From a virus (taxonomy: Duplodnaviria; Caudoviricetes), in the IMG/VR virus record IMGVR_UViG_3300033148_002840, positions 1 to 54,369 of that record: a stretch of DNA of 54,369 nt; one strand, written 5' to 3'. Below, piece after piece: positions 1,806 through 49,687 of the stretch (the stretch's first letter is position 1; the number at the start of each line of letters is the position of its first letter). The position numbers and the translations under genes were made by a program. The notes under the pieces were generated by a model that was not told the DNA's origin, did not search any database, and worked only from the letters and a program-made list of their open reading frames with translations.

Positions 1806-1824
1806 CTCTTTGACATGTGAATAT

Positions 1825-1965
1825 GCGGCGGCGGCGTGAATAGACGACGGTAAAGTGGATAATCCGTCCTAGGTGTTCGCGGGCGTTCAGTGGGGTACAA
1901 GCGAGTCACCGCATTGCCCACCAAGAGCCGAGCCGTTTGAGCTGGGTCGCGACCAGCCCGCCGCA
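1825..1965 (+). ncRNA. tRNA-like RNA with an 80-nt insertion replacing the anticodon loop
   Basis: Acceptor GCGGCGG/CCGCCGC; D arm CGT-GAATAG-ACG; stem ACGGT(1847-51)/GCCGT(1932-36); 4-nt variable region; T arm GCTGG-GTCGCGA-CCAGC. Confidence 0.7.
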
Positions 1966-1981
1966 TTTGAAAAGTGAATGT

Positions 1982-2052
1982 GCCCCGCTGGTGCAAGGGC
2001 AGCATCTCAGCCTTTCGAGTTGAGGATGTAGGTTCGAATCCTACGCGGGGCA
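1982..2052 (+). tRNA. tRNA-Glu (TTC)
   Basis: Acceptor GCCCCGC/GCGGGGC; D stem GTGC/GCAT; anticodon arm TCAGC-CTTTCGA-GTTGA; T arm GTAGG-TTCGAAT-CCTAC; no encoded CCA. Confidence 0.9.
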
Positions 2053-2331: not shown

Positions 2332-2537
2332 CAGGGGATTATCCAGAATTACACCGAAAAGCATACATCTGTGCTGACGGGGGCGTCGCTCAGTTTATAC
2401 CAGTTTGTCCAATATGTGCACGATTTGTTAAAGCTGATCTCCAGGTATGGATGAACGAGCACGGCGAAGTGCGAATGCCAAATGCCACTTGTTCTCGCTG
2501 CGGTCGGGTGAATATGCCTTTTGAGGGATACTTCTAA
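2328..2537 (+). CDS. Zn-ribbon protein
   Basis: CPIC and CSRC; ATGA overlap with upstream gene. Confidence 0.7.
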   Translation: MTGDYPELHRKAYICADGGVAQFIPVCPICARFVKADLQVWMNEHGEVRMPNATCSRCGRVNMPFEGYF

Positions 2538-5157: not shown

Positions 5158-7537
5158 CTGTACGAAATGCGATCTACACAAAGGTGCCCACACCCCCTGT
5201 CTTTGGGGTCGTGGTGATCCCGGTGGTGTCATCATCTTCGGACAAAATCCCGGTGCCGTTGAGGACCGCGAGGGCAGCGTTTTCATTGGGCGGTCTGGTA
5301 AGCTTCTCGATATGTATCTAAAGGTGTCGAGGCTTGATAAGCATCCCGTCTATATCTCGAATGTCGTGAAGTGTTTGACGCCTGAAAATCGGCCGCCATC
5401 TGGCGCTGAGTGCAAAGCTTGTCGGGAGTATGGGGCCGAAGAAATCGAGCAGTGTAAGCCGCGGGCGATTTTGTGTTTGGGGCGGGTCGCCGCAGAGAGC
5501 ATCCTAGGGAGGAATATCGGGCCACTGTCAGCAGCCAGGGGGCAGCGCTATGATCTAAATGGGGTTCCACTATTGGTTACTTATCATCCCGCGTTTTTGA
5601 TGAGGCCGCAGGGGCGACGACTGGTTGATGAGGTTACTGAGGACTATCGGAGAGTGGAGGCGCTGCTTTCTGGGACGTTGCCGGAGGGAGACGCGGAGAT
5701 TGTTCCAGCGTGGGAAATGGACCCCGTTGAGCTTATGGGTGCGAAATCTCTAGTTGTGGATATTGAGACTACATGCTTAAATCCCCGAGAGGCTGGGGCC
5801 AGTATTTTACTCGTTGGGGTTGCAAACATCAATAAACCACGACGAGTGTTTGGCTTTCTTCCTTATTGTCCTCAACATGCTAAAGATGGAGAACTTTGGG
5901 TTAAGAAGATTCTTGAAGGCGCATATACGATCATCGGCCACAACCTAAAGTTCGACGCCAGTTGGCTGAAGATTCATTGGGGAATTGACCTGTTTAGCAA
6001 GGAATGGTTTGATACCTATTCGGCATGTGGGCTCATCTTTCCAGAGTCGCCGAGCCTCAGTCTCAAGGTAATCGGTCCAACTGTAACCGGAATTCCGTAT
6101 GATGAGACCCTAAAGGACTTTGATCCGGGGGACACAGCGAATCTGGAAAGACTCCTAAGTTACTGTGGCAAAGACGTTTACATCACTGGACTGGTGCACG
6201 ATTGGTGTCAACTGCGGTTGGCTAAGCGGAAGCCACTATTGGATTTCACACAAGAGTTGACGAGAACTGTCGCTAAGATGCAGCTATTGGGGGTGAGGAT
6301 TGACCCCAAGGCATTTGAGTCATTGGCTGTGGCAGTGCATAATAGACTGGATACTGCTGCTGAGGCTCTCGGTAAGATTCCGAATGATTTTGATGTCGGC
6401 CTCAAGCAGAAGAAGGATGGAAGTTGGGGGCTATCGACCAAGAAAACCTATGAGTATATCTTTTCGATACTTGGGCTACCAGTGGTGAAGTTGACGGCGA
6501 AGCGCAAACCATCGCTTGACGATGAGGCGCGTAGTGAACTGGAGGCGCTTGACCCCACGGGGTTTGTTAAACAGTATGGCACTTTTCGGAAGGCACAGAA
6601 GCTACTGGGTACTTATATTTTGGGGATTCAGAAGCATACCACGCTGCCACGATTGTACCCCGAGTTCCATATCGTTAAGGGAGATCGTGGGGGCACCGTA
6701 TCCGGCCGCATTACGGTTACAAAACCCGCCATACAGACTACCCCACGGGATGACCCTGAATTGGCCAAGCGTTTCAAGAATATTTATGTGGCCAGAACGC
6801 CAGGGAACCTGGTGATAAATGCTGACCTTGCGCAGATTGAACTGAGGATAGCTGCTGATCTCGCGAACGATGAAGCGATGCTTGCAATCTTTCGGAATGG
6901 GAGAGACCCCCATAAAGAGGCCGCGGCAAAGCTCTTTGGGGTTTCCTTCGATGAAGTTACAGATGGAATGCGGCAACGAGGAAAAACCGCCAACTTTCAG
7001 ATCATTTATGGGTGCTCTGCGTATGGGCTACAAACGGAATTGGCTAAGGCGGGCATTGTAGAATCTGTGCCATCTTGCCAAGATATCATTGACCGATGGT
7101 ATGCGGAATTTCCTGACATTAAAGCGTGGCAGGAAGAGTGGTTAGCTCGAGCGAGAGTAACTAAGCGCGTAACGACACCGCTAAAGCGCGTGCGAACCGT
7201 ACCTAATATCGCAGCGCATGGGCCTGCCGGTAGACACGAGGAACGAGAGGCGTTGAACTTTCCGATTCAGGGCGGGGCGACAGAGGTTTCGAACGTGGGA
7301 CTCATCTTAGTTGAACAGATGCCGAAAGAACCCCATGAACTTTCTCCTATGTTCGTGGTGTACGATTCGATCGTGTTTGATGTAGGGAGTGCTGACGAAG
7401 AAAGGGCTACCCTACTTGCATCTGGAATTGAGACACTTTTCTCTAGAGATGTTCCCCAGTATCTCACGGATAAGTTCGGTTGGAAACTAAAGGCCCCTAT
7501 CGTAATGGACGTTGAGATCGGAGACTGTTGGGCGTAG
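5144..7537 (+). CDS. polA: Family A DNA polymerase with N-terminal family-4-like uracil-DNA glycosylase and 3'-5' exonuclease domains
   Basis: UDG: CxxC, GQNPG, FIGRSG, NVVKC..NRPP..C, TYHPA. Exonuclease: DIET, HNLKFD, YCGKD. Polymerase: DLAQIELR, RQRGKTANFQIIYG, NFPIQG, VYDS. Confidence 0.95.
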   Translation: MRNPNCTKCDLHKGAHTPCLWGRGDPGGVIIFGQNPGAVEDREGSVFIGRSGKLLDMYLKVSRLDKHPVYISNVVKCLTPENRPPSGAECKACREYGAEEIEQCKPRAILCLGRVAAESILGRNIGPLSAARGQRYDLNGVPLLVTYHPAFLMRPQGRRLVDEVTEDYRRVEALLSGTLPEGDAEIVPAWEMDPVELMGAKSLVVDIETTCLNPREAGASILLVGVANINKPRRVFGFLPYCPQHAKDGELWVKKILEGAYTIIGHNLKFDASWLKIHWGIDLFSKEWFDTYSACGLIFPESPSLSLKVIGPTVTGIPYDETLKDFDPGDTANLERLLSYCGKDVYITGLVHDWCQLRLAKRKPLLDFTQELTRTVAKMQLLGVRIDPKAFESLAVAVHNRLDTAAEALGKIPNDFDVGLKQKKDGSWGLSTKKTYEYIFSILGLPVVKLTAKRKPSLDDEARSELEALDPTGFVKQYGTFRKAQKLLGTYILGIQKHTTLPRLYPEFHIVKGDRGGTVSGRITVTKPAIQTTPRDDPELAKRFKNIYVARTPGNLVINADLAQIELRIAADLANDEAMLAIFRNGRDPHKEAAAKLFGVSFDEVTDGMRQRGKTANFQIIYGCSAYGLQTELAKAGIVESVPSCQDIIDRWYAEFPDIKAWQEEWLARARVTKRVTTPLKRVRTVPNIAAHGPAGRHEEREALNFPIQGGATEVSNVGLILVEQMPKEPHELSPMFVVYDSIVFDVGSADEERATLLASGIETLFSRDVPQYLTDKFGWKLKAPIVMDVEIGDCWA

Positions 7538-7547
7538 GAGATTAACA

Positions 7548-8087
7548 ATGTCACATGATTTTGGTTGGGCGTTTGAGCAGATGAAAAGGGGGGCGCACGT
7601 TTGTCTCCCTGCTGGTCGTGATAGTGATGAGTATTGGTATATCAAAGGTGGAAAAATATGGGTCCATCAGGACTCTCTCTCCGACGCCCCCCTGGGTTTT
7701 TGCATGGGACCAGTTATAGCGTCAACTAATTGGGAACTATACGAACCCAAACCCAAGGACGTATCACCCCCATTCAACGCTTTGGATGTAGCGCGATTGG
7801 TTGGGGAGGTCCCTACTGATGAGTTGGTGGCGATTCAAGATGCCGCTCGCGGGGAGCTAGCGAAGCGGGAGACCCCCCGCTTTTGCCACAGCTTTACATG
7901 GGCCGTAGGTAAACTGTTTGTTGGGCAGACAGTACAATATGTTAAATGGAATCGTTTAGCTTACGCTTGGTATGTGGCCCGAAACGGGCGGTTGTACCTA
8001 AAAGACAAATACGGTGGGGTAACATTTTGGTATCCTTCTATAGATGAGATGCGGTCCGTTAGCGGTTGGCGGTTATATACCAAGTGA
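7548..8087 (+). CDS. Hypothetical protein with two similar domains (DUF2829/Thoeris anti-defence Tad2-like, tentative)
   Basis: HDFGWAFEQMKRGAHV..NWELY and HSFTWAVGKLFVGQTV..PSIDEM..GWRLY. Confidence 0.6.
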   Translation: MSHDFGWAFEQMKRGAHVCLPAGRDSDEYWYIKGGKIWVHQDSLSDAPLGFCMGPVIASTNWELYEPKPKDVSPPFNALDVARLVGEVPTDELVAIQDAARGELAKRETPRFCHSFTWAVGKLFVGQTVQYVKWNRLAYAWYVARNGRLYLKDKYGGVTFWYPSIDEMRSVSGWRLYTK

Positions 8088-9519: not shown

Positions 9520-10414
9520 ACAAGTGTGCCCGCGAAAGGAGTTCTATCAGTATGGGCTAGAGATTAGCCCACGGGGCATTAAGAAGGGGGCGTCGATTGG
9601 CACCCTAGTGCATACGTTTACGGAGACTGTCCGCGCCATGAAGTCGCATAAGATGGCGTTCGAGTTGGTGGAGCAAGACATTGAGAAGTTACGTAAGCGG
9701 GCGGTAGCAAGCGATTGGGAATCTGATATCTTGACGTATGCTGATGTGACCGCGAAGACTCGCGCTATGATACACGCCTATGCCGAGTTCTACGGTGAGG
9801 ACGATGAGTGGAATTGCCCGGACGTTGAGAGTTGGATTCAGGTGCCCAACTGGCCATGCGAGGGGATTAGATTTAATGGTCGGTTGGATGCGATGGCGGA
9901 AATTGAGCGGCGGGGGCTTGCACTAACTGAAACGAAGACGGGTACGCGGCTTGATCCCAATAGGTGGTCGCTAACTCCGTTTGAGGTCGCTGCCGTTATG
10001 TACGCTTATGCGTACAGAAAGATGTTCGGGAAGGCGCCATTTGGGGTCCTATGGGATTGGGTACGGACACCGAGTCTTCGCGTCAAGGCGGATGAAGGGA
10101 TTAACGAGTTTTCAGCGAGACTTCAGGCGGACATGTTGAAGCGGCCACTTGAGTACTTTTCGAGAGAGATCGTCCCCTTTGGGCCGAATGATATTGAACT
10201 TGGGGAGCGAGAGCAGCGACGAGACGCGCTAGACTTATTGGATGATTACTTGTACTGCTGTGAGTACGGTTTCGATATTAGAATATTCCGTCGTCGGTCT
10301 GAGAACTGCCTGCGATATGGGGCCTGCGAGTACCGACAGTTGTGCACGCAACCGATTACGCCTGAAATGCTAGATGAGTTTGATAAGAAGGAGAGGTATC
10401 ATGGCAAGCGTTAG
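9218..10414 (+). CDS. PD-(D/E)XK Cas4/RecB-like exonuclease (start 9218 or 9476)
   Basis: SPSRLK..CPRK, GTLVH, GRLD, ETKT, C-terminal C..YG.C.Y..LC. Confidence 0.85.
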   Translation: MNTQSQSSSRKPAPPRSCSESQKSPPCPGPKSSGEPCPPACGSESRPSLRGGASQQVASSLPSGTPSGTSKGAVFESSTLSSPLGTVRLPLSISPSRLKTRQVCPRKEFYQYGLEISPRGIKKGASIGTLVHTFTETVRAMKSHKMAFELVEQDIEKLRKRAVASDWESDILTYADVTAKTRAMIHAYAEFYGEDDEWNCPDVESWIQVPNWPCEGIRFNGRLDAMAEIERRGLALTETKTGTRLDPNRWSLTPFEVAAVMYAYAYRKMFGKAPFGVLWDWVRTPSLRVKADEGINEFSARLQADMLKRPLEYFSREIVPFGPNDIELGEREQRRDALDLLDDYLYCCEYGFDIRIFRRRSENCLRYGACEYRQLCTQPITPEMLDEFDKKERYHGKR

Positions 10415-10715
10415 CCCTTACAAGCTCGTGAACCCTACAAGCCCCGTTAATCACTTCGTGTGTAAGTTGTGCGGTGAATATTGGGCCGGGCGTCTTGAGG
10501 AAACCCCGCCGACACAATGTAAAAGCTGCGGGGGGTCAATAGACGAAGTGCGTGATGTAGCAGGTTGGATTAAGTTTTGCAAGAAACGGATAGCGATCGC
10601 CCACGAAAAGGCCGCGGTGTTTGATTCATGGCCAAAAACGCATCCTGACCCTAGGTCTTTTTGGGTTGGATATGCGGCGGCATTAGAGGATGTGCTTATC
10701 ACATGTGAGGAGTAA
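10401..10715 (+). CDS. Zn-ribbon protein
   Basis: AAGGAG RBS; CKLC and CKSC. Confidence 0.7.
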   Translation: MASVSPYKLVNPTSPVNHFVCKLCGEYWAGRLEETPPTQCKSCGGSIDEVRDVAGWIKFCKKRIAIAHEKAAVFDSWPKTHPDPRSFWVGYAAALEDVLITCEE

Positions 10716-10719
10716 TTTC

Positions 10720-11187
10720 ATGGCAAGTAGCGTCGATAAAAATTATCCACTGTTTCCTGGAGATTTTGAAGAGAACGACCGAATAATGCTTATGGCGGTA
10801 TATAATATACGCCCGAAGATACACCCCTCCGATGACCACTTACCCCACCAGGAGGCGTTAAGGATCATCTCCAAACTTCTACGATTAAACACGATAGGCT
10901 TTCACCCCAATGGAGCCCCCTACCTTACTGGACGTGGCCATGCAGTTTTGAATGCCTTGCTTCACAACGGCCAAACCGAAGGGGAGATTAAATGCCCACC
11001 AATGCCTACGATGAAGTTCTCCCCAGAAGATATTCGCCAATGCCATGAGATCATCGCGAAATATATAGCCAATGAGCTATTTGGTTGGCCAAGCATTACT
11101 TATCAATGTTCGGGGGCAGGGGTTGGTGCGACAGTTGACCAAACCCTTCAAGAGTTATATGCGGCGTGTCGAAAAGGACCTTGCTAA
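10720..11187 (+). CDS. Hypothetical winged-helix-like protein
   Basis: GAGGAG RBS; KLLRL...YLTGRG, similar to the next gene. Confidence 0.65.
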   Translation: MASSVDKNYPLFPGDFEENDRIMLMAVYNIRPKIHPSDDHLPHQEALRIISKLLRLNTIGFHPNGAPYLTGRGHAVLNALLHNGQTEGEIKCPPMPTMKFSPEDIRQCHEIIAKYIANELFGWPSITYQCSGAGVGATVDQTLQELYAACRKGPC

Positions 11188-11399
11188 TGTCTCCAGACCT
11201 AAATGATCTCGACTGGAATATACTCACCGCGACCAACGACGAGAATCATCCTGCGGTCCGGGCGGACGAGACAAAGGCGATGATCTCTATCGGGAAGTTG
11301 TTTAGACTAAAGCTAGTTGAATATGGAATCAAGGGTAATTTGTTGCCGACTGAACTAGGAAAGCTCGCGTTAGCTGAAAAGGAGACCTTAGATGCCTAA
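11187..11399 (+). CDS. Small winged-helix-like protein, paralog of the previous gene
   Basis: KLFRL...PTELGKLAL. Confidence 0.6.
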   Translation: MSPDLNDLDWNILTATNDENHPAVRADETKAMISIGKLFRLKLVEYGIKGNLLPTELGKLALAEKETLDA

Positions 11400-12255
11400 G
11401 TTTACGGTTGATAGCCGAACCGTCGTGACCGCGGATACCACTAAGAAGAAGCTCGGCGATGTCTTCGAGACTTATAGCCCTAAACAGGCCAAAGTACAGG
11501 ACATCACTGCACTGGTGCATGGTGAGAGCGGCGTGGGTAAGACCGCATTTCTGTCTGGGTTTCCAAACCCGATCTTCATTTTCACGGAAGATAGCGGGCA
11601 GTTTATGGAGTGCCGACGAACGCTGGTCTACGCCTGGAAGGATTTCTGTAAAACTATTGTAACCTTGGAGAGATTGAAGTCTACCTTCAAGGATGAGGAC
11701 CCCCCACCCACGCTTATCATTGACACCGTGGACCAGCTCTATACCATGTGTGAGAATCACGTCTGCGAAGTGCGTGGTATGGAGTATCCATCAGATGCTA
11801 CCAGCGGGGCAGGTTGGGCGTACGTTGGTAATGAGTTTGCTCAGTGGTTCCGACGCGCCCGCGCACTCTTTGGCGGCGTTTGGATGACTACACATACCAC
11901 GGAACTTTATACGATAGATGCAGGCTTCGATGAGCGAAAGGGAAAAAAGGTTCCCGAGATGGGGAAGCGCGCATGGCGGGTTATTCGTCCACACCTCGCC
12001 GTAACAATCTTCCTCGATGCTGTGCGGATGCAGAACAAAGATGGCAAGCTGCATAATGCGCGGGTGGCTAAGATAAGCGTTGATCCGCACCACGCGGCAA
12101 AGAAGCGGCATGGGCTTAATCTCCCGGACCAGGTGTTGTGTCCTGATCCCAATGCCGGACACAATCCGGCAGGCCCCTTCTTAGATGCGTTTAAGCAAGC
12201 CCTCATTAAGGGCGAAACCATAACCCCCAGTACAGGAGGCCAATCAAATGGCTGA
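11392..12255 (+). CDS. AAA_24/Sak4-like ATPase recombinase
   Basis: Walker A GESGVGKT; Walker B LIIDTVDQL; next to exonuclease and SSB-like genes. Confidence 0.85.
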   Translation: MPKFTVDSRTVVTADTTKKKLGDVFETYSPKQAKVQDITALVHGESGVGKTAFLSGFPNPIFIFTEDSGQFMECRRTLVYAWKDFCKTIVTLERLKSTFKDEDPPPTLIIDTVDQLYTMCENHVCEVRGMEYPSDATSGAGWAYVGNEFAQWFRRARALFGGVWMTTHTTELYTIDAGFDERKGKKVPEMGKRAWRVIRPHLAVTIFLDAVRMQNKDGKLHNARVAKISVDPHHAAKKRHGLNLPDQVLCPDPNAGHNPAGPFLDAFKQALIKGETITPSTGGQSNG

Positions 12256-12694
12256 GAACGAGGAGTTGGTAAGTCAACTATTGGATGAGCAGGACGAAAA
12301 GGATTTCGCAGTAGCGGGGTCTGGTATCCCCCTCGATGTGGGGGACCATACCGTAGATGTTGTGGCCCTTGAGGGTAAGACCACAGAAAAGGCGAAGGTT
12401 GTCACCCTCAGTATTGAAACCGTTGATGACGTGGGGCCGACGGGCGCTCCCATCAAGTTCACTTGTGATTATTGGATCGTGAACGAGGCTGGTCAGCGCC
12501 GGGACATTGAACTGGGCAGGCTTCGTAAGGAACTCGGTATTATGATGCGGGGTGCCGATTTAGACCCCACTGGACTGAGCGGGAATGATCGTTTGGCGGC
12601 CGTTCAGAGTGCGTTGCCCCTTCGAGTTGCCTTCAATGTGAAGCAATCCGGCGAGTTCAAAAACTGGAAGATCGTCAGAGTAGTCAGCGGTTAG
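12248..12694 (+). CDS. Putative ssDNA-binding protein
   Basis: Follows the Sak4-like gene; beta-rich with an acidic N terminus. Confidence 0.55.
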   Translation: MAENEELVSQLLDEQDEKDFAVAGSGIPLDVGDHTVDVVALEGKTTEKAKVVTLSIETVDDVGPTGAPIKFTCDYWIVNEAGQRRDIELGRLRKELGIMMRGADLDPTGLSGNDRLAAVQSALPLRVAFNVKQSGEFKNWKIVRVVSG

Positions 12695-12701
12695 GACCAC
12701 T

Positions 12702-13940
12702 ATGTCCCAGGTATCGGAGGAGGGGGCGCAGACTGTTTGGACGCCCCCTCCAGGCCCGAATTTGCAGGACGTGCGAGATGCCTACAGGGAACTTCTATAC
12801 CTGGAGAAGGCGCATCTGGCGATGATTGATTATGTGATGGCGCTAGTGCTCGGGCAACGACTCCAGGGGGAGAATGTCTGGTCGTATATTATTGGGCCTC
12901 CGAGTTGTGGGAAGGGGGTCCTGTTAGATGGACTCCGGGGGGAGCGTGGTGATAAAGGCGTCGATGACATTGTTTGGTTGTCGCAGATGTCGGACGCCGC
13001 ACTCGTATCCGGGTATAAGAAACCGGGCGCAAAAAAGAGCCCGGACTACGGACTCCTTCCAAAGTTGAACGGCAAGATTCTGGTGATTAAGGAGTTGACG
13101 CCATTACTGACCACGATGCCGCAATCACGGGACAAAATACTAGGGCAGTTCCGCGATGCCTACGATCAGTTCTTTGCAAAGAAGCATGGAAATGAAACCG
13201 ACATCAGTGGCTATTATTCTAAGTTCGGGTTTATCGCTGCGGTAACACCGGAGATCGACAGATTTCGGTCCGCGATGCAAGCGCTTGGAGAGCGCTGCTT
13301 GGCGATTCGTTGGCCGCCATATGGTAACTTACGGGCGCTAGCTCGAAAGGCAGCACTCGCCAATGACACGCCACTGGCGGACAAACAGAAAATTATGAAG
13401 CCTGTTAAGACCTTCTTGGAGAAGCGGCCTGGGTGCCTCTCTCGGGATGTTGTGATTAGTCCAGAGTTGTTGGATAAGATTATTGATCTTGGGATGTTGA
13501 CGGCACGATTGCGGTCTACGGTAGCGCGGAAGGATAGCGCTTTTGGGGAGCAAACGGTACTTTATCGCCCGGAGCCAGAGGTCAGCCCGCGACTTGTTAA
13601 GCAGCTTGTTGCGTTAGCTAAGGGGATCGCGGTTTCTCGGGATCGACACTATGTTATCGAGGACGATCTATGGTTGGTGCGGCAAGTTACTCGGGGGTGT
13701 TTAACCAAGAGAACACTACAGTTATTGGATACTATTCATGGGACTAAAGCCGCCACAGTGAAATATCTTCATGCCGCTACGGATGACAGCTATTCAACAC
13801 TGGCGAGAGATGTTGGGGACTTGGTGATGTTGGGGGTGCTACGAAAGACTCGCGTTGCTAAAGAGAACTATTACTCGTTTATTGACGAGTATTTGAAGTT
13901 GATTGATGATACGGGGTATTTTGATGATGGGATTGAGTAA
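12702..13940 (+). CDS. MCM-like AAA+ ATPase, putative replicative helicase with C-terminal wHTH
   Basis: GPPSCGKG, GLL..L.GKILVIKE, FIAAVTP, ERCL, SPRLVKQL. Confidence 0.75.
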   Translation: MSQVSEEGAQTVWTPPPGPNLQDVRDAYRELLYLEKAHLAMIDYVMALVLGQRLQGENVWSYIIGPPSCGKGVLLDGLRGERGDKGVDDIVWLSQMSDAALVSGYKKPGAKKSPDYGLLPKLNGKILVIKELTPLLTTMPQSRDKILGQFRDAYDQFFAKKHGNETDISGYYSKFGFIAAVTPEIDRFRSAMQALGERCLAIRWPPYGNLRALARKAALANDTPLADKQKIMKPVKTFLEKRPGCLSRDVVISPELLDKIIDLGMLTARLRSTVARKDSAFGEQTVLYRPEPEVSPRLVKQLVALAKGIAVSRDRHYVIEDDLWLVRQVTRGCLTKRTLQLLDTIHGTKAATVKYLHAATDDSYSTLARDVGDLVMLGVLRKTRVAKENYYSFIDEYLKLIDDTGYFDDGIE

Positions 13941-13952
13941 AGGAGACTCATT

Positions 13953-30466: not shown

Positions 30467-31301
30467 AAAGGCCCTCCGAGCGTTCGTGATCTATGTCGAT
30501 GTTGCCCCATTCCTGGAGGGCTTGGGCGACGGCCTCATCGTAGGACATCCGGGGGAAGGCCGTTAGAGAGCTTCCTTCCGTACAATTATACACCGTGAAT
30601 CCTACCTTGTCAAAGTAGGGGCGGAGAGCCGTAAGTCGTGTGTTGACAAGGGTATACATCTGGTTGTTTCGATCGGCGGTGTGCTGGTCACGGGTTTGTG
30701 CGAAGTGGTAGGGTCTACCGGGAGACATTTTGAAGTCGGTGCCCAGGAGATAGACCGTTTTGATGCCCAGGATGTAGAGGAGCTTGAGAGCGGGAAGGAG
30801 GACGCTACGGCCCGGGAAGCCACCTTCGGGCGTGCCCCCCCAACAGAAGGAGTCCTCAACGAGGAAGTCCGCGGCCTTGAATATGTTGTTTCGCATGAAG
30901 AAGAAGACCCCAGGGCATTTTTCTATGGTGGTGGCCATTAGTTTCCACGCATCGCTGTCGAACACCTTTCGGTCGGCGTTAACCGCCGGGGTGAATTTTA
31001 GGATGGTGGGATCGAGCCAAATGGAGCGGAGGAATTGACAGGGGGAATCGAGGCCGACCCAAAGATGGGGGCGAATGGTCTTGGGCGCGTTGTTCATGGC
31101 TGCAATCAAGACTCCTGGGACCTGAAGTTTAGTTGTGTCTACGCTCTTGAGGGATGGGCCGCAGCCGACCAAGAACGCACTATGGCCCGCATAGAGTCCA
31201 TCGAGATTTGTGGGTCGGAATCTACTGGTGTAGAGCGCGGAGTGGATATTGGAGTGCTTAGCTATGATCTCGTGGTCGCGGGTATGCGGGCGAGCACTCA
31301 T
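30444..31301 (-). CDS. DUF115/Maf-like glycosyltransferase-family protein
   Basis: AFLVGCGPSL, AMNN, LGIKTVYLLGTDF, VYNCT..S.L.AFP. Confidence 0.75.
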   Translation of the reverse strand: MSARPHTRDHEIIAKHSNIHSALYTSRFRPTNLDGLYAGHSAFLVGCGPSLKSVDTTKLQVPGVLIAAMNNAPKTIRPHLWVGLDSPCQFLRSIWLDPTILKFTPAVNADRKVFDSDAWKLMATTIEKCPGVFFFMRNNIFKAADFLVEDSFCWGGTPEGGFPGRSVLLPALKLLYILGIKTVYLLGTDFKMSPGRPYHFAQTRDQHTADRNNQMYTLVNTRLTALRPYFDKVGFTVYNCTEGSSLTAFPRMSYDEAVAQALQEWGNIDIDHERSEGLYDQRKPH

Positions 31302-44397: not shown

Positions 44398-45723
44398 TTA
44401 TACTTTCCTCCCGCTACTGCCTTCGATGCCCCACAGGTGGACGGCATAGGGGTCTTTCTTTCCAAGCATCTCTATACGGGCGGCTTCGGGCGCTTTCCAA
44501 AAGGCCCGCGCTTTCTCACGTTCCCGCCAGGACCACGGATAAAAATAACTCCACGGTAGGATGCGCATATCACTATCGCCGTTTTCTGTAAAGAGTCCAG
44601 TTAGCATACTTGGTCCGAAGCGTGTGCGAGGGCGGCGCTCCGTCTCCGGCGTTATCTTCGGTATTCTGGCAAGGCACCGCATGAACGCATTACTGTGGCG
44701 AATAGCACCCATACACCCATTGGTTAGCTTCTTAGAGCCCTCGTGGAGTGTAGTCCAGGCAGGTCCCTTCTTGCGCAGCGGATCAAAACTTTTACGTGTT
44801 ATAAGATCAGTATTGAGGGTGACACCACCATAATGATAGAGTAGCCAACAGTATAAGATATCGGCGCGTTGACAAAGTTGTTCACAACTAGACCATGCGG
44901 GGACCAAATCATCCTGAAATGTTGGGGGGCGCCCCGTCCACAGATTGATCTTCCAACGAGGATTATGCGCTCGAAAGGCGTCCATAATACCTTGAAGCCA
45001 ATTGGGTTTAGGCCCCAACCACACAAAGTGCGCGATCCGTGGTATAATGTTGGGTAAATCGGCGTCCTGAACGTACGTGTAGTCAATGTCTAATAGTTTG
45101 CACTCTTCTTCTTGCAGGTTGCGGAGTTCTGGAAAGATACCTTGCCCTCGACCACTGGATAGTATGGACAATCGGGGATCATAGGGACTTCCTAGTTTAG
45201 AAGGAGTGTTTCCGTCGCACCCAATGTACACGATCTCGGAGGCGCCACAAATCCACGCGAAATGTGTGGCTAGATGACACACGCTTCCGGCCTTATATAA
45301 TGACCCGGACACAGCCGCTTCCTCTCTAGAGAGTTTGAGTAGACTTTTATCCTTGTATCCACTCCAATCATATCCAACGATTGTGCCATGTTCAGTGGGA
45401 TTGAGGTCCCGCGCGAAGATACGACCTCGATTGTGAATGTGTTCGATGCCTGCTGGCGGGTTCTTGGTCGGTCCCTGGGGTAAGACAAGTGTACTCGTTC
45501 TATTCGATGTGAGGAGCACCTTCATGGATTTGTGGGCCGTTACCAAGAAAGTCTCAATGGATTTAGTCACCTTATCTTCTAGGAGGACAGCATCATTCAA
45601 GAAGATGATGGGGTCCGTTATCTTCGTTAGGTTCTCATAGTCGTAGGGGGTAATGCCCTTACCCACAATTATGAATCGGTAACCAGCGTACTTATTGAGA
45701 TAATCTTTGAGAGTTAGCATCAT
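44398..45723 (-). CDS. DUF115/Maf-like domain fused to a GT32 glycosyltransferase
   Basis: FIIVGKG, FLND, EIVYIGCD; IPRIAHFVWLG, ADIL..WLLYHYGGV.L.TD. Confidence 0.82.
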   Translation of the reverse strand: MMLTLKDYLNKYAGYRFIIVGKGITPYDYENLTKITDPIIFLNDAVLLEDKVTKSIETFLVTAHKSMKVLLTSNRTSTLVLPQGPTKNPPAGIEHIHNRGRIFARDLNPTEHGTIVGYDWSGYKDKSLLKLSREEAAVSGSLYKAGSVCHLATHFAWICGASEIVYIGCDGNTPSKLGSPYDPRLSILSSGRGQGIFPELRNLQEEECKLLDIDYTYVQDADLPNIIPRIAHFVWLGPKPNWLQGIMDAFRAHNPRWKINLWTGRPPTFQDDLVPAWSSCEQLCQRADILYCWLLYHYGGVTLNTDLITRKSFDPLRKKGPAWTTLHEGSKKLTNGCMGAIRHSNAFMRCLARIPKITPETERRPRTRFGPSMLTGLFTENGDSDMRILPWSYFYPWSWREREKARAFWKAPEAARIEMLGKKDPYAVHLWGIEGSSGRKV

Positions 45724-46403
45724 TCACTCGCTCTTGGGGCGCCAACTTCACGAAAAGTCTTAAATAGGTGCAGCCCAAATGGGGGAACCCCATCTACCCA
45801 CTTGGATTTAGTGCTATCTAGAAGGATTTTGCGCTCCGTTAGGGATGCTTTCCAAAACTTCCTACAGTCTTCAGGCTCCGGTAAAACATTGAAATAGTGT
45901 GCGGGGAGAAGCTCCATCATTCCATGAGAGCAGCAGTAGTGTACTAGCCGGGCACCCCTCCCTGTATGGTGTTTGGATAGTTGCTCCTCACGCTTCATGT
46001 AGACATCAACCAAGAATCTGAAGGCCGCGCATCCCTGTTGCCCACCTAAGACGCCATTATAACAGGCGTTCTTAGTTTGATGCCAGGCATAGGTAAACGC
46101 CGTGTACTTCAATAGCGGGTTGAATGATCGGAAGGTTATCACATCGGAGTCAACATAGACGCCGCCGTAAGTCGAAAGCAACCAATATCGTATTATGTTA
46201 CTCTTCTTTGAGAAGATGGGGTTTTCATCACACCGACAGCGGAGGGCCGTTGGGAACCTGTCAGGAACGTCCTCCCACAATTTTACTTCCCAATCGGGGT
46301 GAAATTGTCGAAAGGTCTCCATGTTCGCGGTCGCCCATGCAGGGGGTGGCGACCCCAACCAGATGAAGTGACATAGTTTTGGGATCATTCTAAGGGTCCC
46401 CAC
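45720..46403 (-). CDS. GT32 (DXD) glycosyltransferase
   Basis: MIPKLCHFIWLG, HPDWEVKLW, IIRYWLL..YGGVYVDSD. Confidence 0.9.
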   Translation of the reverse strand: MGTLRMIPKLCHFIWLGSPPPAWATANMETFRQFHPDWEVKLWEDVPDRFPTALRCRCDENPIFSKKSNIIRYWLLSTYGGVYVDSDVITFRSFNPLLKYTAFTYAWHQTKNACYNGVLGGQQGCAAFRFLVDVYMKREEQLSKHHTGRGARLVHYCCSHGMMELLPAHYFNVLPEPEDCRKFWKASLTERKILLDSTKSKWVDGVPPFGLHLFKTFREVGAPRASE

Positions 46404-49159: not shown

Positions 49160-49687
49160 GTGTTACTATCTTTATACGGTGCAGAAGGCCCGCGGTCAAC
49201 AGGAATATCGGAAAAAGTCCCAAGTTTTAGTAAAATTCTTGGTGTTTGCCGGTCTGGCCTAAAATTCAGGCCACTTTTTTGTGAAATTTTGGGGGCCCGG
49301 CAAAAAATACAGGGGCGTCGAATGGGGCGAGAGGTGATAAATCTCTACTATCGGCAAAACGTTATGGGCCTGTACCCCCCACCGTTTGTCGCATTATGCA
49401 CCCGATGCACATTGGACACCGCATGTCGGGAACCAGCCCCCGTTGTGCACACCGCACACCCCAGGACAGCCCATGTCGGGAATCTTGCCCACGGTTGGTA
49501 ATCATTCCGACACTGCATGTCGTGTATGGTAGGGGGCCGACGACATCCAACATCCGGCATCTACCCGCCGCCAGGTATCCGGGCGACAAACAGACTCCGA
49601 TATCCACCAGTCGGACCTAACAACTATCTAACTCGTCGATCATAAGTGCCTAGTGGGTAAGGGTTTACAATTATTCTTGAGATTACC

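What the first reader, a model, noticed from the sequence alone, without database searches (positions are those of the whole stretch)
1825..1965. Cloverleaf tRNA mimic with an 80-nt structured insert instead of an anticodon loop
Seen: near-canonical tRNA geometry. There is a 7-bp acceptor stem (1825-31/1958-64) with discriminator A, a 2-nt linker, a short D arm, a 5-bp anticodon-type stem (1847-51/1932-36), a 4-nt variable region and a 5-bp T stem with 7-nt loop. It departs from tRNA in having C8, a non-canonical T loop GTCGCGA, and an insert (1852-1931) that folds on its own (GGT..GGGC/GCCC-ACC, AGTG.GGT/ACC.CATT). It lies 16 nt upstream of a genuine tRNA-Glu. Inference: a functional ncRNA released by RNase P/Z that carries an RNA cargo on a tRNA scaffold. 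Possible roles are a decoy for tRNA-targeting defence nucleases, a regulator, or an unusual intron-containing tRNA. The insert is too short for a group I intron or tmRNA.
Basis: partly seen in the sequence, partly recalled or inferred. Interest (0 to 1): 0.8.

Follow-up and report, generated by a model that had tools for sequence, protein, structure and literature searches.

The report
tRNA-shaped phage RNA without anticodon
Next to a normal tRNA gene, this phage carries a second, tRNA-shaped unit that has an 80-base structured piece where the anticodon loop should be; it looks like a real small-RNA gene of a kind long known in phages T5 and T4, whose job is still unknown.

Summary
In the strict form this geometry occurs twice in the 54-kb phage, at the element and at tRNA-Glu. 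It appeared in 0 of 20,000 shuffles of the 175-nt gap.

New evidence: the 16 nt before the element's first base and before tRNA-Glu's first base are 13/16 identical in the same register. Only 9 of 2,000,000 random 16-mer pairs do as well. The same motif (TTGACAWGTGAATA) precedes tRNAs, tRNA-shaped RNAs and other structured units in unrelated IMG/VR phages. So the element is very probably a discrete RNA gene.

It is not a decoding tRNA. ARAGORN and Rfam reject it. It lacks U8, G18G19, U33, T54 and A58, and no way of removing the insert gives a normal anticodon loop.

The architecture is not new. GenBank annotates T5 RNA1 and RNA2 as 'tRNA-like stable RNA with unknown functions', and they fold as cloverleaves with expanded anticodon arms. 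T4 RNAC is similar.

No homologue was reachable because the phage is an orphan, so covariation and expression remain untested. I rate it a new, sequence-unrelated variant of a known but unexplained kind, of moderate interest.

The parts
1809..1824 (+). Leader / promoter-like motif, copy 1 (TTTGACATGTGAATAT), ending directly before G+1 of the element
   Evidence: It is 13/16 identical to copy 2 in the same register; 9 of 2,000,000 random 16-mer pairs reach that. These are the only two matches to the 18-nt motif in the window, even with 3 mismatches allowed. The loose form gives 2 hits against 0.10 expected. The same motif occurs in unrelated phages ahead of structured RNAs.
1825..1965 (+). tRNA-shaped RNA unit. 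Acceptor 1825-31/1958-64; D-like hairpin 1835-37/1844-46; AC-type stem 1847-51/1932-36; T arm 1941-57 (loop GTCGCGA); variable region 1937-40; discriminator A1965
   Evidence: Pairs listed. Geometry statistics. Not called by ARAGORN or by Rfam at E<=10. No plus-strand ORF of 60 aa or more.
1852..1931 (+). 80-nt insert enclosed by the AC-type stem. It is predicted to form two irregular hairpins, but the fold is not well determined
   Evidence: Constrained fold. No Rfam family matches it. No antisense match of 11 nt or more elsewhere in the phage. No canonical 7-nt anticodon loop with U33 is present (sequence).
1966..1981 (+). Leader / promoter-like motif, copy 2 (TTTGAAAAGTGAATGT). It is also the whole spacer between the element and tRNA-Glu
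1982..2052 (+). Genuine tRNA-Glu(UUC), no encoded CCA
   Evidence: Rfam RF00005, 57.6 bits. ARAGORN gives 1981-2053.

Best explanation
The 141-nt stretch is a separate small-RNA gene encoding a tRNA-shaped RNA that does not decode. Its two ends form a 7-bp acceptor stem stacked on a 5-bp T arm. This 12-bp 'minihelix' is the part of a tRNA that RNase P, RNase Z and the CCA-adding enzyme recognise (established knowledge, recalled). A 5-bp anticodon-type stem carries an 80-nt structured domain instead of an anticodon loop.

It is expressed or processed through the same 16-nt upstream signal as the adjacent tRNA-Glu. This signal is promoter-like or a processing site, and it recurs in front of tRNAs and structured RNAs in unrelated phages.

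Inferred, not shown: the RNA is made early and its 5' end lies at G1825. Its 3' end is cut after A1965, where the following UUU would suit RNase Z. The host adds CCA, and the product accumulates as a stable RNA.

It is the same kind of molecule as T5 RNA1/RNA2 and T4 RNAC, and like them its target is unknown. My best guess is that it uses tRNA-like ends for maturation and stability, and that the 80-nt domain binds a host or phage factor.
For: (1) All stems are present; 19 of the 20 pairs are Watson-Crick and one is G-U.
(2) The strict geometry occurs only at this site and at tRNA-Glu in the window. It is rare in shuffles: mean 0.09 over 400 window shuffles, and 0 of 20,000 gap shuffles.
(3) The leaders are 13/16 identical in the same register relative to +1, against 9 of 2,000,000 random pairs. 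The motif is found only at these two sites.
(4) The motif TTGACAWGTGAATA recurs 2-3 times per genome, always on one strand, in IMG/VR records G005 and G006 (reversed-pattern control: 0). Structured units follow it directly, with terminal stems starting at the same +1: a 98-nt tRNA-shaped RNA in G006 and 117-135-nt units. In L103 it sits 7 nt before a tRNA array. A one-off variant precedes a tRNA-Val carrying a large insertion.
(5) 15 of 34 distinct motif contexts are non-coding, against 3 of 32 for look-alike control hits.
(6) The stems are intact while the universal tertiary nucleotides (U8, G18G19, T54, A58) are changed. That is not the pattern of neutral decay of a tRNA gene (inference).
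(7) Precedent: T5 RNA1 and RNA2 are annotated as tRNA-like stable RNAs. They fit the same descriptor, with 47- and 55-nt inserts in the AC arm. T4 RNAC has a canonical T arm plus end pairing.
(8) No plus-strand ORF, and the element has the same orientation as the flanking genes and the tRNA.
Against: No homologue of the element was found, so there is no covariation test at all.

Thermodynamics do not single out the cloverleaf. The z-score is -1.62, the D arm probability is 0, the T arm probability is 0.35, and the MFE uses a different inner pairing.

With loose rules such cloverleaves are common in shuffles. The strict rules were chosen after seeing the element.

The acceptor 5' strand lies in a (GCG)4 low-complexity run with alternative registers.

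The T loop lacks the T54-A58 pair and the D loop lacks GG, so a tRNA-like L shape is doubtful.

The nature of the motif is unresolved. It has no sigma-70 spacing, no T7-like RNAP gene is present (though the control for that search was silent), and the four phages share no proteins. In G007 and several other phages the motif precedes ordinary mRNAs. It therefore marks a transcription or processing unit, not specifically a stable RNA.
Confidence: 0.55

Rival explanations
1. It is a cis-acting RNA structure, not a stable trans-acting RNA. Examples would be a processing or insulator module that separates the upstream mRNA from the tRNA, a 3'-end stabiliser for the upstream message, or a 5' structure of the transcript that continues into tRNA-Glu and the downstream ORFs.
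For: There is no terminator between the element, the tRNA and the next ORF. In other phages the same motif is followed by structured 5' UTRs with terminator-like hairpins ahead of genes (L110, L114 and G007). The inner fold is poorly determined.
Against: A simple hairpin would serve those roles. The exact tRNA-like layout is not explained: a 7-bp stem abutting a 5-bp/7-nt hairpin, a 4-nt variable region, A73 and U(-1). Nor is the fact that the element has its own copy of the leader in the same register as the tRNA.
Confidence: 0.17
2. It is a decayed duplicate of a tRNA gene (leader plus tRNA) that acquired an insertion in the anticodon region: a pseudogene without function.
For: The shared leader is what a tandem duplication would leave. 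Universal tRNA nucleotides are lost, and tRNA detectors reject it. The acceptor G1-C72/C2-G71/G3-C70 and a GCC triplet at the end of the insert faintly recall tRNA-Gly. This resemblance is recalled from memory and weak.
Against: All 20 stem pairs are intact while about half of the conserved loop positions differ, which neutral decay would not produce (inference). The leader is better conserved than the body, which argues for selection on expression. The 3' half has no blastn similarity to any annotated phage tRNA: 6 hits, none of them a tRNA.
Confidence: 0.13
3. It is an intron-containing tRNA that is spliced into a working tRNA.
For: The insert sits where tRNA introns sit. In another phage, a genuine tRNA-Val carries a ~64-nt insertion, though in the variable region (L086:1518-1652, Rfam 41.3 bits).
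Against: ARAGORN with intron search does not call it. No group I intron or other ribozyme family matches at E<=10, and 80 nt is far below group I size. Every 7-nt loop obtainable by removing an internal piece has A33. No BHB-type pairing was seen (sequence). The phage has no RtcB or RNA ligase. The T loop and D loop are non-canonical.
Confidence: 0.05
4. It is a chance arrangement of GC-rich complementary runs in a promoter-bearing spacer.
For: The MFE z-score is not significant. Loose-rule cloverleaves are common in shuffles. There is a (GCG)n low-complexity run. The motif may simply be two tandem promoters.
Against: 0 of 20,000 gap shuffles give the full geometry, and 10 of 20,000 give even acceptor plus T arm. 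The helix starts exactly at +1 of the motif, as it does for the tRNA and for units in other phages.
Confidence: 0.1

Closest known systems
Phage T5 RNA1 (144 nt) and RNA2 (125 nt), annotated in NC_005859 as 'tRNA-like stable RNA with unknown functions'
   Same: They lie among tRNA genes. Each has a 7-8-bp acceptor stem abutting a 5-bp T arm with a 7-nt loop. A 5-bp AC-type stem encloses a long structured insert instead of a 7-nt loop: 47 nt in RNA1 and 55 nt in RNA2. RNA2 also has a 4-nt variable region. Sizes are similar and the function is unknown.
   Different: No sequence similarity by nhmmer or blastn-short; L027 was among the 130 loci searched. The T5 RNAs keep a canonical or near-canonical T loop (UUCGAAU, UUCAACU) and GG in the D loop, which the window element does not. 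The insert here is longer, at 80 nt. The T5 RNAs are annotated there as stable RNAs. This one is only predicted.
Phage T4 RNAC (species 1 RNA, 139 nt) and RNAD
   Same: They are small stable RNAs encoded next to the tRNA genes. RNAC folds with a canonical T arm next to end pairing, plus extra hairpins. Their roles are unknown (PMC3014915 and PMC9697503; passages read).
   Different: In RNAC the large extra hairpin sits at the D-arm side, and the acceptor-like stem has mismatches. No sequence similarity. RNAD shows no clear tRNA shape.
tmRNA tRNA-like domain
   Same: The ends form an acceptor stem plus T arm, a weak or absent D stem, and a large insert in place of the anticodon arm.
   Different: ARAGORN's tmRNA search and the Rfam tmRNA models find nothing. 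The pair at positions 3-70 is G3-C70, not G3-U70. The element is far too short and has no credible tag reading frame.
YrlA / bacterial Y-RNA-like tRNA mimics (recalled: Chen et al., RNA 2014)
   Same: It is a non-coding tRNA mimic found in bacteria and phages, and it does not decode.
   Different: In YrlA the RNA ends lie in the extended anticodon-type stem and the acceptor is closed by a loop. Here the ends are in the acceptor. No Ro60/TROVE gene is present in the phage. A permuted unit of the YrlA layout was seen in another motif-bearing phage (L129), not here.
Engineered 'tRNA scaffold' for RNA expression (recalled: Ponchon and Dardel 2007)
   Same: A cargo RNA is inserted at the anticodon stem of a tRNA body so that tRNA-processing enzymes mature and stabilise it.
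   Different: That is a man-made construct built on a canonical tRNA body. Here the body lacks the canonical tertiary nucleotides.

Membership tests
tRNA (Rfam RF00005; ARAGORN) | Covariance-model score at or above 29 bits, or an ARAGORN call (with or without an intron) | tested here: not met
   No match over 1825-1965 at the gathering score or at E<=10. ARAGORN at default settings, with -i, and at lowered thresholds gives no plus-strand call.
tRNA (decoding) | 7-nt anticodon loop with U33; U8; G18G19 in the D loop; T54-A58 in the T loop | tested here: not met
   Read directly. Position 8 is C. The D loop is GAAUAG. The T loop is GUCGCGA (G54, C58). All candidate loops have A33.
tRNA-like minihelix substrate (RNase P / RNase Z / CCA-adding enzyme) | A 7-bp acceptor stacked directly on a 5-bp T stem with a 7-nt loop, plus an unpaired discriminator | tested here: met
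   1825-31/1958-64 plus 1941-57, with A1965. Rare by chance. Actual cleavage and CCA addition cannot be tested here.
Phage tRNA-like stable RNAs (T5 RNA1/RNA2, T4 RNAC) | Encoded beside phage tRNA genes; acceptor plus T arm; an extra structured domain in place of a normal arm | tested here: met
   Adjacent to tRNA-Glu. The same descriptor finds T5 RNA2 (d=20, v=4, insert 55), T5 RNA1 (insert 47) and the element (d=15, v=4, insert 80).
Phage tRNA-like stable RNAs (T5 RNA1/RNA2, T4 RNAC) | Accumulates as a discrete stable RNA in infected cells | not testable with these tools
   The look-up of sequencing runs listed no run.
Phage tRNA-like stable RNAs (T5 RNA1/RNA2, T4 RNAC) | Sequence homology to the T5 or T4 RNAs | tested here: not met
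   nhmmer and blastn-short of the element against 130 loci, including L007 (T4) and L027 (T5), gave no hit there. The likeness is one of kind, not of descent.
tmRNA | G3-U70, a tag ORF with resume codon, pseudoknots; detected by ARAGORN -m or Rfam | tested here: not met
   G3-C70.
YrlA / Y RNA | Ro60 (TROVE) partner gene nearby; RNA ends in a long Ro-binding stem | tested here: not met
   PF05731 is absent from the phage at E<=1, and the control genomes did match. The topology is different.
Group I intron in tRNA | Group I catalytic core in the anticodon loop | tested here: not met
   No Rfam intron match at E<=10. The insert is 80 nt.
attP overlapping a host tRNA 3' end | An integrase gene, and identity to a host tRNA 3' half | tested here: not met
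   No PF00589 match. The 20-mer of T arm plus acceptor hit only chance sites in 18 high-GC genomes.

The most novel reading that the evidence does not exclude
The element belongs to an undescribed, widespread set of phage small-RNA genes marked by a common 16-nt signal (TTTGACAWGTGAATAW) placed directly before the first base of the RNA. The set includes tRNA-shaped RNAs without anticodons (this window and G006), a tRNA-Val with a ~64-nt variable-region insertion (G005, preceded by a one-off variant of the signal), and a permuted Y-RNA-like unit (L129). On this reading, phages use tRNA bodies as natural scaffolds to mature and stabilise 'cargo' RNA domains. The cargo could act on host factors, for instance as decoys for defences that attack tRNAs. 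The signal itself would be a new kind of compact promoter or processing site recognised by a host enzyme, because the phages that carry it share no proteins.
Probability: 0.2. Interest if true: 0.75.

Novelty: new variant of a known kind. Interest (0 to 1): 0.5.

Why it matters
Small stable tRNA-like RNAs have been known in T4 and T5 for decades, and no function has ever been assigned to them (PMC3014915 and PMC9697503, passages read). This is an independent, sequence-unrelated example in an orphan environmental phage. A shared upstream signal also ties together tRNAs, tRNA mimics and other structured RNAs in unrelated phages. Together these suggest that such RNAs are a recurrent phage invention and not an oddity of two model phages. 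The signal also offers a handle for finding more of them. Phage tRNAs are now known to counter tRNA-cleaving defences (PMC11555353 and PMC11464382; titles and abstracts seen in the listing only). That makes a role for anticodon-less tRNA mimics in this conflict a testable idea. Nothing here shows that role.

Tried and rejected
Homologue hunt. All of the following were negative or unusable:
- blastn of 1600-2340 against 50,697 GenBank phages: no match.
- Exact IMG/VR patterns from the element and from tRNA-Glu: 0 useful hits. The tRNA-Glu 3' half hit one unrelated tRNA cluster, L008.
- Polymerase-anchored loci: IMG/VR gave 4 at 25-31% identity with no tRNAs. The JGI metagenomes gave 1 at 31%. 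GTDB genomes gave none.
- Terminase relatives: 30% identity or below. GenBank phages by tblastn: polymerase at most 29.5%, and the 87-aa neighbour had no match.
- Translating the antisense ORF 1769-2005 in the hope that a relative's gene call covers the element: nothing found.
- A 20-mer of the T arm in GTDB genomes: 18 hits, all chance matches in high-GC genomes.
- The look-up of sequencing runs: none was listed and no RNA holder was listed, so read laying could not be used.
- nhmmer and blastn-short of the element against all 130 held loci (1.2 Mb): only the chance 20-mer sites.

Ideas rejected:
- tmRNA.
- YrlA with a Ro60 partner.
- Retron RNA: no reverse transcriptase.
- attP: no integrase.
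- Phage CCA-adding enzyme, RtcB or RNA ligases: none found.
- Antisense regulator of phage genes: no complement of 11 nt or more.
- The third acceptor-plus-T-arm hit, at 49212-49279, is a terminator-like hairpin flanked by A and T runs.

The motif:
- It is not a sigma-70 promoter by spacing (and inspection).
- PF00940 (T7-like RNAP) did not match in the window, G005, G006 or G007. The control genomes were also silent, so this result is weak.
- No DFDGD-type protein was found, and the four phages share no proteins apart from one 164-aa G005-G006 match and a 28-aa window-G006 match.
- The motif is not enriched in 301 Planctomycetota genomes: 5 hits against 3 for the reversed control.
- No paper in the library contains the motif as a literal string in a relevant context: 2 irrelevant hits.
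- blastn of one motif context (L099) against GenBank phages: no match.

Supplementary files of papers were not consulted. The candidate-RNA tables of PMC10690425 might list related IMG/VR motifs, but I could not see them.

Full report
What the window is. The 54,369-base window is a whole IMG/VR virus record with direct terminal repeats. It encodes a family A DNA polymerase, exonucleases and a large terminase. Genes run on the plus strand across the first 18 kb. The phage is an orphan. The nearest polymerase is one 78% relative on a Logan contig I could not fetch, plus a 99% fragment, and everything else is around 30% or lower. The nearest terminase is at 30% or below. GenBank phages reach at most 29.5% for the polymerase.

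The observation. The gap between the stop codon of a 66-aa ORF (1805) and tRNA-Glu (Rfam 1982-2052, 57.6 bits) has no plus-strand ORF of 60 aa or more.
- a 7-bp all-Watson-Crick acceptor (1825-31/1958-64);
- a 3-bp D-like hairpin (1835-37/1844-46);
- a 5-bp anticodon-type stem with one G-U (1847-51/1932-36);
- a 4-nt variable region;
- a 5-bp all-Watson-Crick T stem with the 7-nt loop GTCGCGA;
- discriminator A1965, and C at position 8.

The description 'near-canonical' is generous. Only 15 nt, not the usual ~19, lie between the acceptor and the AC stem. The D hairpin has zero probability in the thermodynamic ensemble, and the T arm has 0.35. The cloverleaf is 3.2 kcal/mol above the MFE. The whole stretch folds no better than shuffles: z = -1.62, with 13 of 200 shuffles at least as stable. 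ARAGORN, with or without intron search and at relaxed thresholds, does not call it. Nor does Rfam at E<=10, for tRNA, tmRNA, ribozymes or introns.

Is it more than chance? I wrote a descriptor: a 7-bp acceptor; a 5-bp/7-nt T arm abutting it; and a 5-bp stem 13-21 nt after the acceptor and 3-6 nt before the T arm, enclosing any insert.
- With one G-U allowed per stem it is common. Shuffled windows give 1.4 hits on average, and 110 of 150 have at least one.
- With the stringency the element actually meets (no G-U in the acceptor or T stem), the window has two sites: the element and tRNA-Glu. 400 shuffles average 0.09 sites, or 0.0125 if a D hairpin is also required.
- Shuffling the 175-nt gap itself 20,000 times gave acceptor plus T arm 10 times and the full geometry never.

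These tests are post hoc, and the (GCG)4 run offers alternative registers. Even so, the acceptor/T-arm minihelix beside a real tRNA is unlikely to be an accident.

Independent evidence: a shared leader. The 16 bases before G1825 (TTTGACATGTGAATAT) and before G1982 of tRNA-Glu (TTTGAAAAGTGAATGT) are identical at 13 positions, in the same register relative to the first acceptor base. Of 2,000,000 random pairs of 16-mers from the window, 9 reach that level. The 18-nt consensus matches nowhere else in the window, even with three mismatches. A loose form matches twice against 0.10 expected. Both units also have U at -1, A at 73 and no encoded CCA. The element is therefore built as a unit equivalent to the tRNA gene.

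The leader is not private to this phage. IMG/VR scans with the motif returned many chance or coding hits, none followed by an ARAGORN tRNA in the first scan. They also returned unrelated phages in which TTGACA[AT]GTGAATA sits ahead of non-coding structured units.
- Record G005 (59.8 kb, terminal repeats) has three copies on one strand about 3 kb apart, and G006 has two adjacent copies. The reversed-pattern control gave none.
- Right after the motif, at the same +1, come several kinds of unit. One is a 98-nt tRNA-shaped RNA in G006, with a 6-bp acceptor, a T arm CAGGG-ATTACAA-CCCTG, and a 4-nt loop where the anticodon loop should be. Another is a ~135-nt unit closed by GTGGCGG/CCGCCAC. There are also 117-170-nt cloverleaf-like units ending in U runs.
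- A one-off variant of the motif in G005 precedes a genuine tRNA-Val(UAC) with a ~64-nt insertion in the variable region. Rfam scores it at 41.3 bits, and ARAGORN misses it.
- In L103 the motif lies 7 nt before a tRNA-Ile-Cys-Thr array. In L129 it precedes a 150-nt unit with a permuted, Y-RNA-like arrangement of tRNA parts. In G007 and a group of AT-rich phages it lies about 25-70 nt before ordinary genes.
- Of 34 distinct contexts, 15 lie outside any open frame of 100 codons or more. For look-alike hits lacking TTGACA the figure is 3 of 32.

The window, G005, G006 and G007 share essentially no proteins, and their GC content ranges from 43% to 63%. A host enzyme presumably reads the signal. 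What it is remains open. It has no sigma-70 spacing (and inspection). PF00940 (T7-like polymerase) did not match, but the control for that search was silent. No DFDGD protein was found. The motif is not enriched in 301 Planctomycetota genomes (5 hits against 3 in the control). In G005 one copy follows a terminator-like hairpin directly, which favours a promoter over a mere processing site. That is an inference.

What the element is not.
- It is not a decoding tRNA. It has no U8, no GG in the D loop, G54/C58 in the T loop, and no 7-nt loop with U33. Whichever internal piece one removes, position 33 is A.
- An intron is unlikely. There is no group I core, I saw no bulge-helix-bulge pairing, and the phage has no RtcB or RNA ligase.
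- It is not tmRNA (G3-C70).
- It is not YrlA: no Ro60 gene, and the ends lie in the acceptor, not in the long stem.
- It is not retron RNA or attP: no reverse transcriptase or integrase.
- It has no antisense match of 11 nt or more elsewhere in the phage.
- Pfam scans of 20 further ORFs found no RNA-handling protein.

What it is like. GenBank's T5 record annotates RNA1 (144 nt) and RNA2 (125 nt) as 'tRNA-like stable RNA with unknown functions', in the middle of the tRNA genes. Folded, both are cloverleaves whose anticodon arm is expanded to about 55-60 nt. My descriptor picks them up with inserts of 47 and 55 nt, and RNA2 has a 4-nt variable region like the element. T4 RNAC (139 nt) has a canonical T arm next to end pairing, plus two extra hairpins. 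Two papers state that the roles of RNAC and RNAD are unknown (PMC3014915 and PMC9697503; passages read). There is no sequence similarity between these RNAs and the element. Unlike them, the element has lost the canonical T-loop and D-loop nucleotides.

Most likely mechanism.
- Shown: a tRNA-type acceptor/T-arm minihelix with an AC-type stem carrying 80 nt, and a dedicated copy of the same upstream signal as the tRNA.
- Inferred: transcription or processing gives a 5' end at G1825. The 3' end is cut after A1965 by the tRNA 3' machinery, where the following UUU would suit RNase Z (recalled). CCA is then added, and the RNA is stable because it looks like a tRNA to the processing enzymes.
- Unknown: what the 80-nt domain does. 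The intact stems, set against the loss of the universal tertiary nucleotides, argue for selection on secondary structure and against neutral decay.

I put 0.55 on 'discrete tRNA-shaped small RNA'. The rest is split among a cis-acting structure (0.17), a decayed duplicate (0.13), chance (0.10) and an intron-bearing tRNA (0.05).

Limits. There is no homologue, hence no covariation test, and there are no RNA data. The geometry statistics were designed after the fact.

Noticed in passing
L086:1518-1652 (-), IMG/VR record G005: A genuine tRNA (Rfam 41.3 bits, anticodon loop CTTACGC = Val-UAC) carries a ~64-nt insertion in the variable region. ARAGORN misses it. It is preceded by a variant of the motif (TTTTACAAATGAATAT) and followed by a full motif copy plus a 117-nt cloverleaf-like RNA.
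   Followed up: partly
G006:C1 about 31019-31116 (-) (in L081/L084): A 98-nt tRNA-shaped RNA starts right after the motif. It has a 6-bp acceptor, a 5-bp D-like arm, a 6-bp stem with a 4-nt loop in place of the anticodon arm, an extra hairpin, and a T arm with the non-canonical loop ATTACAA. There is no Rfam hit at E<=1. A second motif copy and a ~135-nt unit follow.
   Followed up: partly
L129:8422-8571 (+): A 150-nt unit is closed by a 13-bp terminal stem that starts at +1 of the motif. Inside it are a closed 7-bp stem, 'UA', a canonical D arm (GCTC-AACGGGCA-GAGC) and a T-loop-like GGTTCAACTCC. This is a permuted tRNA layout like that of bacterial Y-RNA-like (YrlA) RNAs. No Rfam hit at E<=1.
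   Followed up: partly
IMG/VR loci L042, L046, L047, L056, L098-L131; window 1809-1824 and 1966-1981: The motif TTTGACAWGTGAATAW recurs in many unrelated phage contigs, often non-coding (15 of 34 contexts against 3 of 32 for controls). It lies ahead of tRNA arrays, structured RNAs or genes. It does not fit sigma-70 spacing, and I found no literal match for it in the paper library.
   Followed up: partly
window 2508-2517 (+): There is a third exact copy of GTGAATATGC, inside the ORF 2328-2537, without the TTGACA half and without a tRNA-like structure after it. It is probably chance, but all three exact copies in the window lie within 700 nt.
   Followed up: partly
window 49212-49279 (+), within the non-coding stretch about 48.4-50.1 kb: A terminator-like hairpin (GGCCT-AAAATTC-AGGCC followed by a T run), flanked by complementary A and T runs, mimics acceptor plus T arm in my scan. 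The surrounding ~1.5 kb has few ORFs and separates oppositely oriented gene blocks.
   Followed up: no
window 7512-8087 (+) and 45720-46403 (-): There is a weak, below-cut-off Tad2-like (Thoeris anti-defence) match in a 191-aa ORF (E = 0.0011, 19.9 bits against a cut-off of 25). A 227-aa glycosyltransferase has a DXD sugar-binding domain (44.9 bits), beside a methyltransferase and a sulfotransferase-like ORF.
   Followed up: no
L027 (T5, NC_005859) 10285-13950: Beyond RNA1 and RNA2, the T5 record lists RNAIII, RNAI, RNA2H, RNAIV, RNA3 and RNAX as stable RNAs of unknown function among the tRNA genes. RNAIII also fits the acceptor/T-arm/AC-stem descriptor, with a 32-nt insert.
   Followed up: partly
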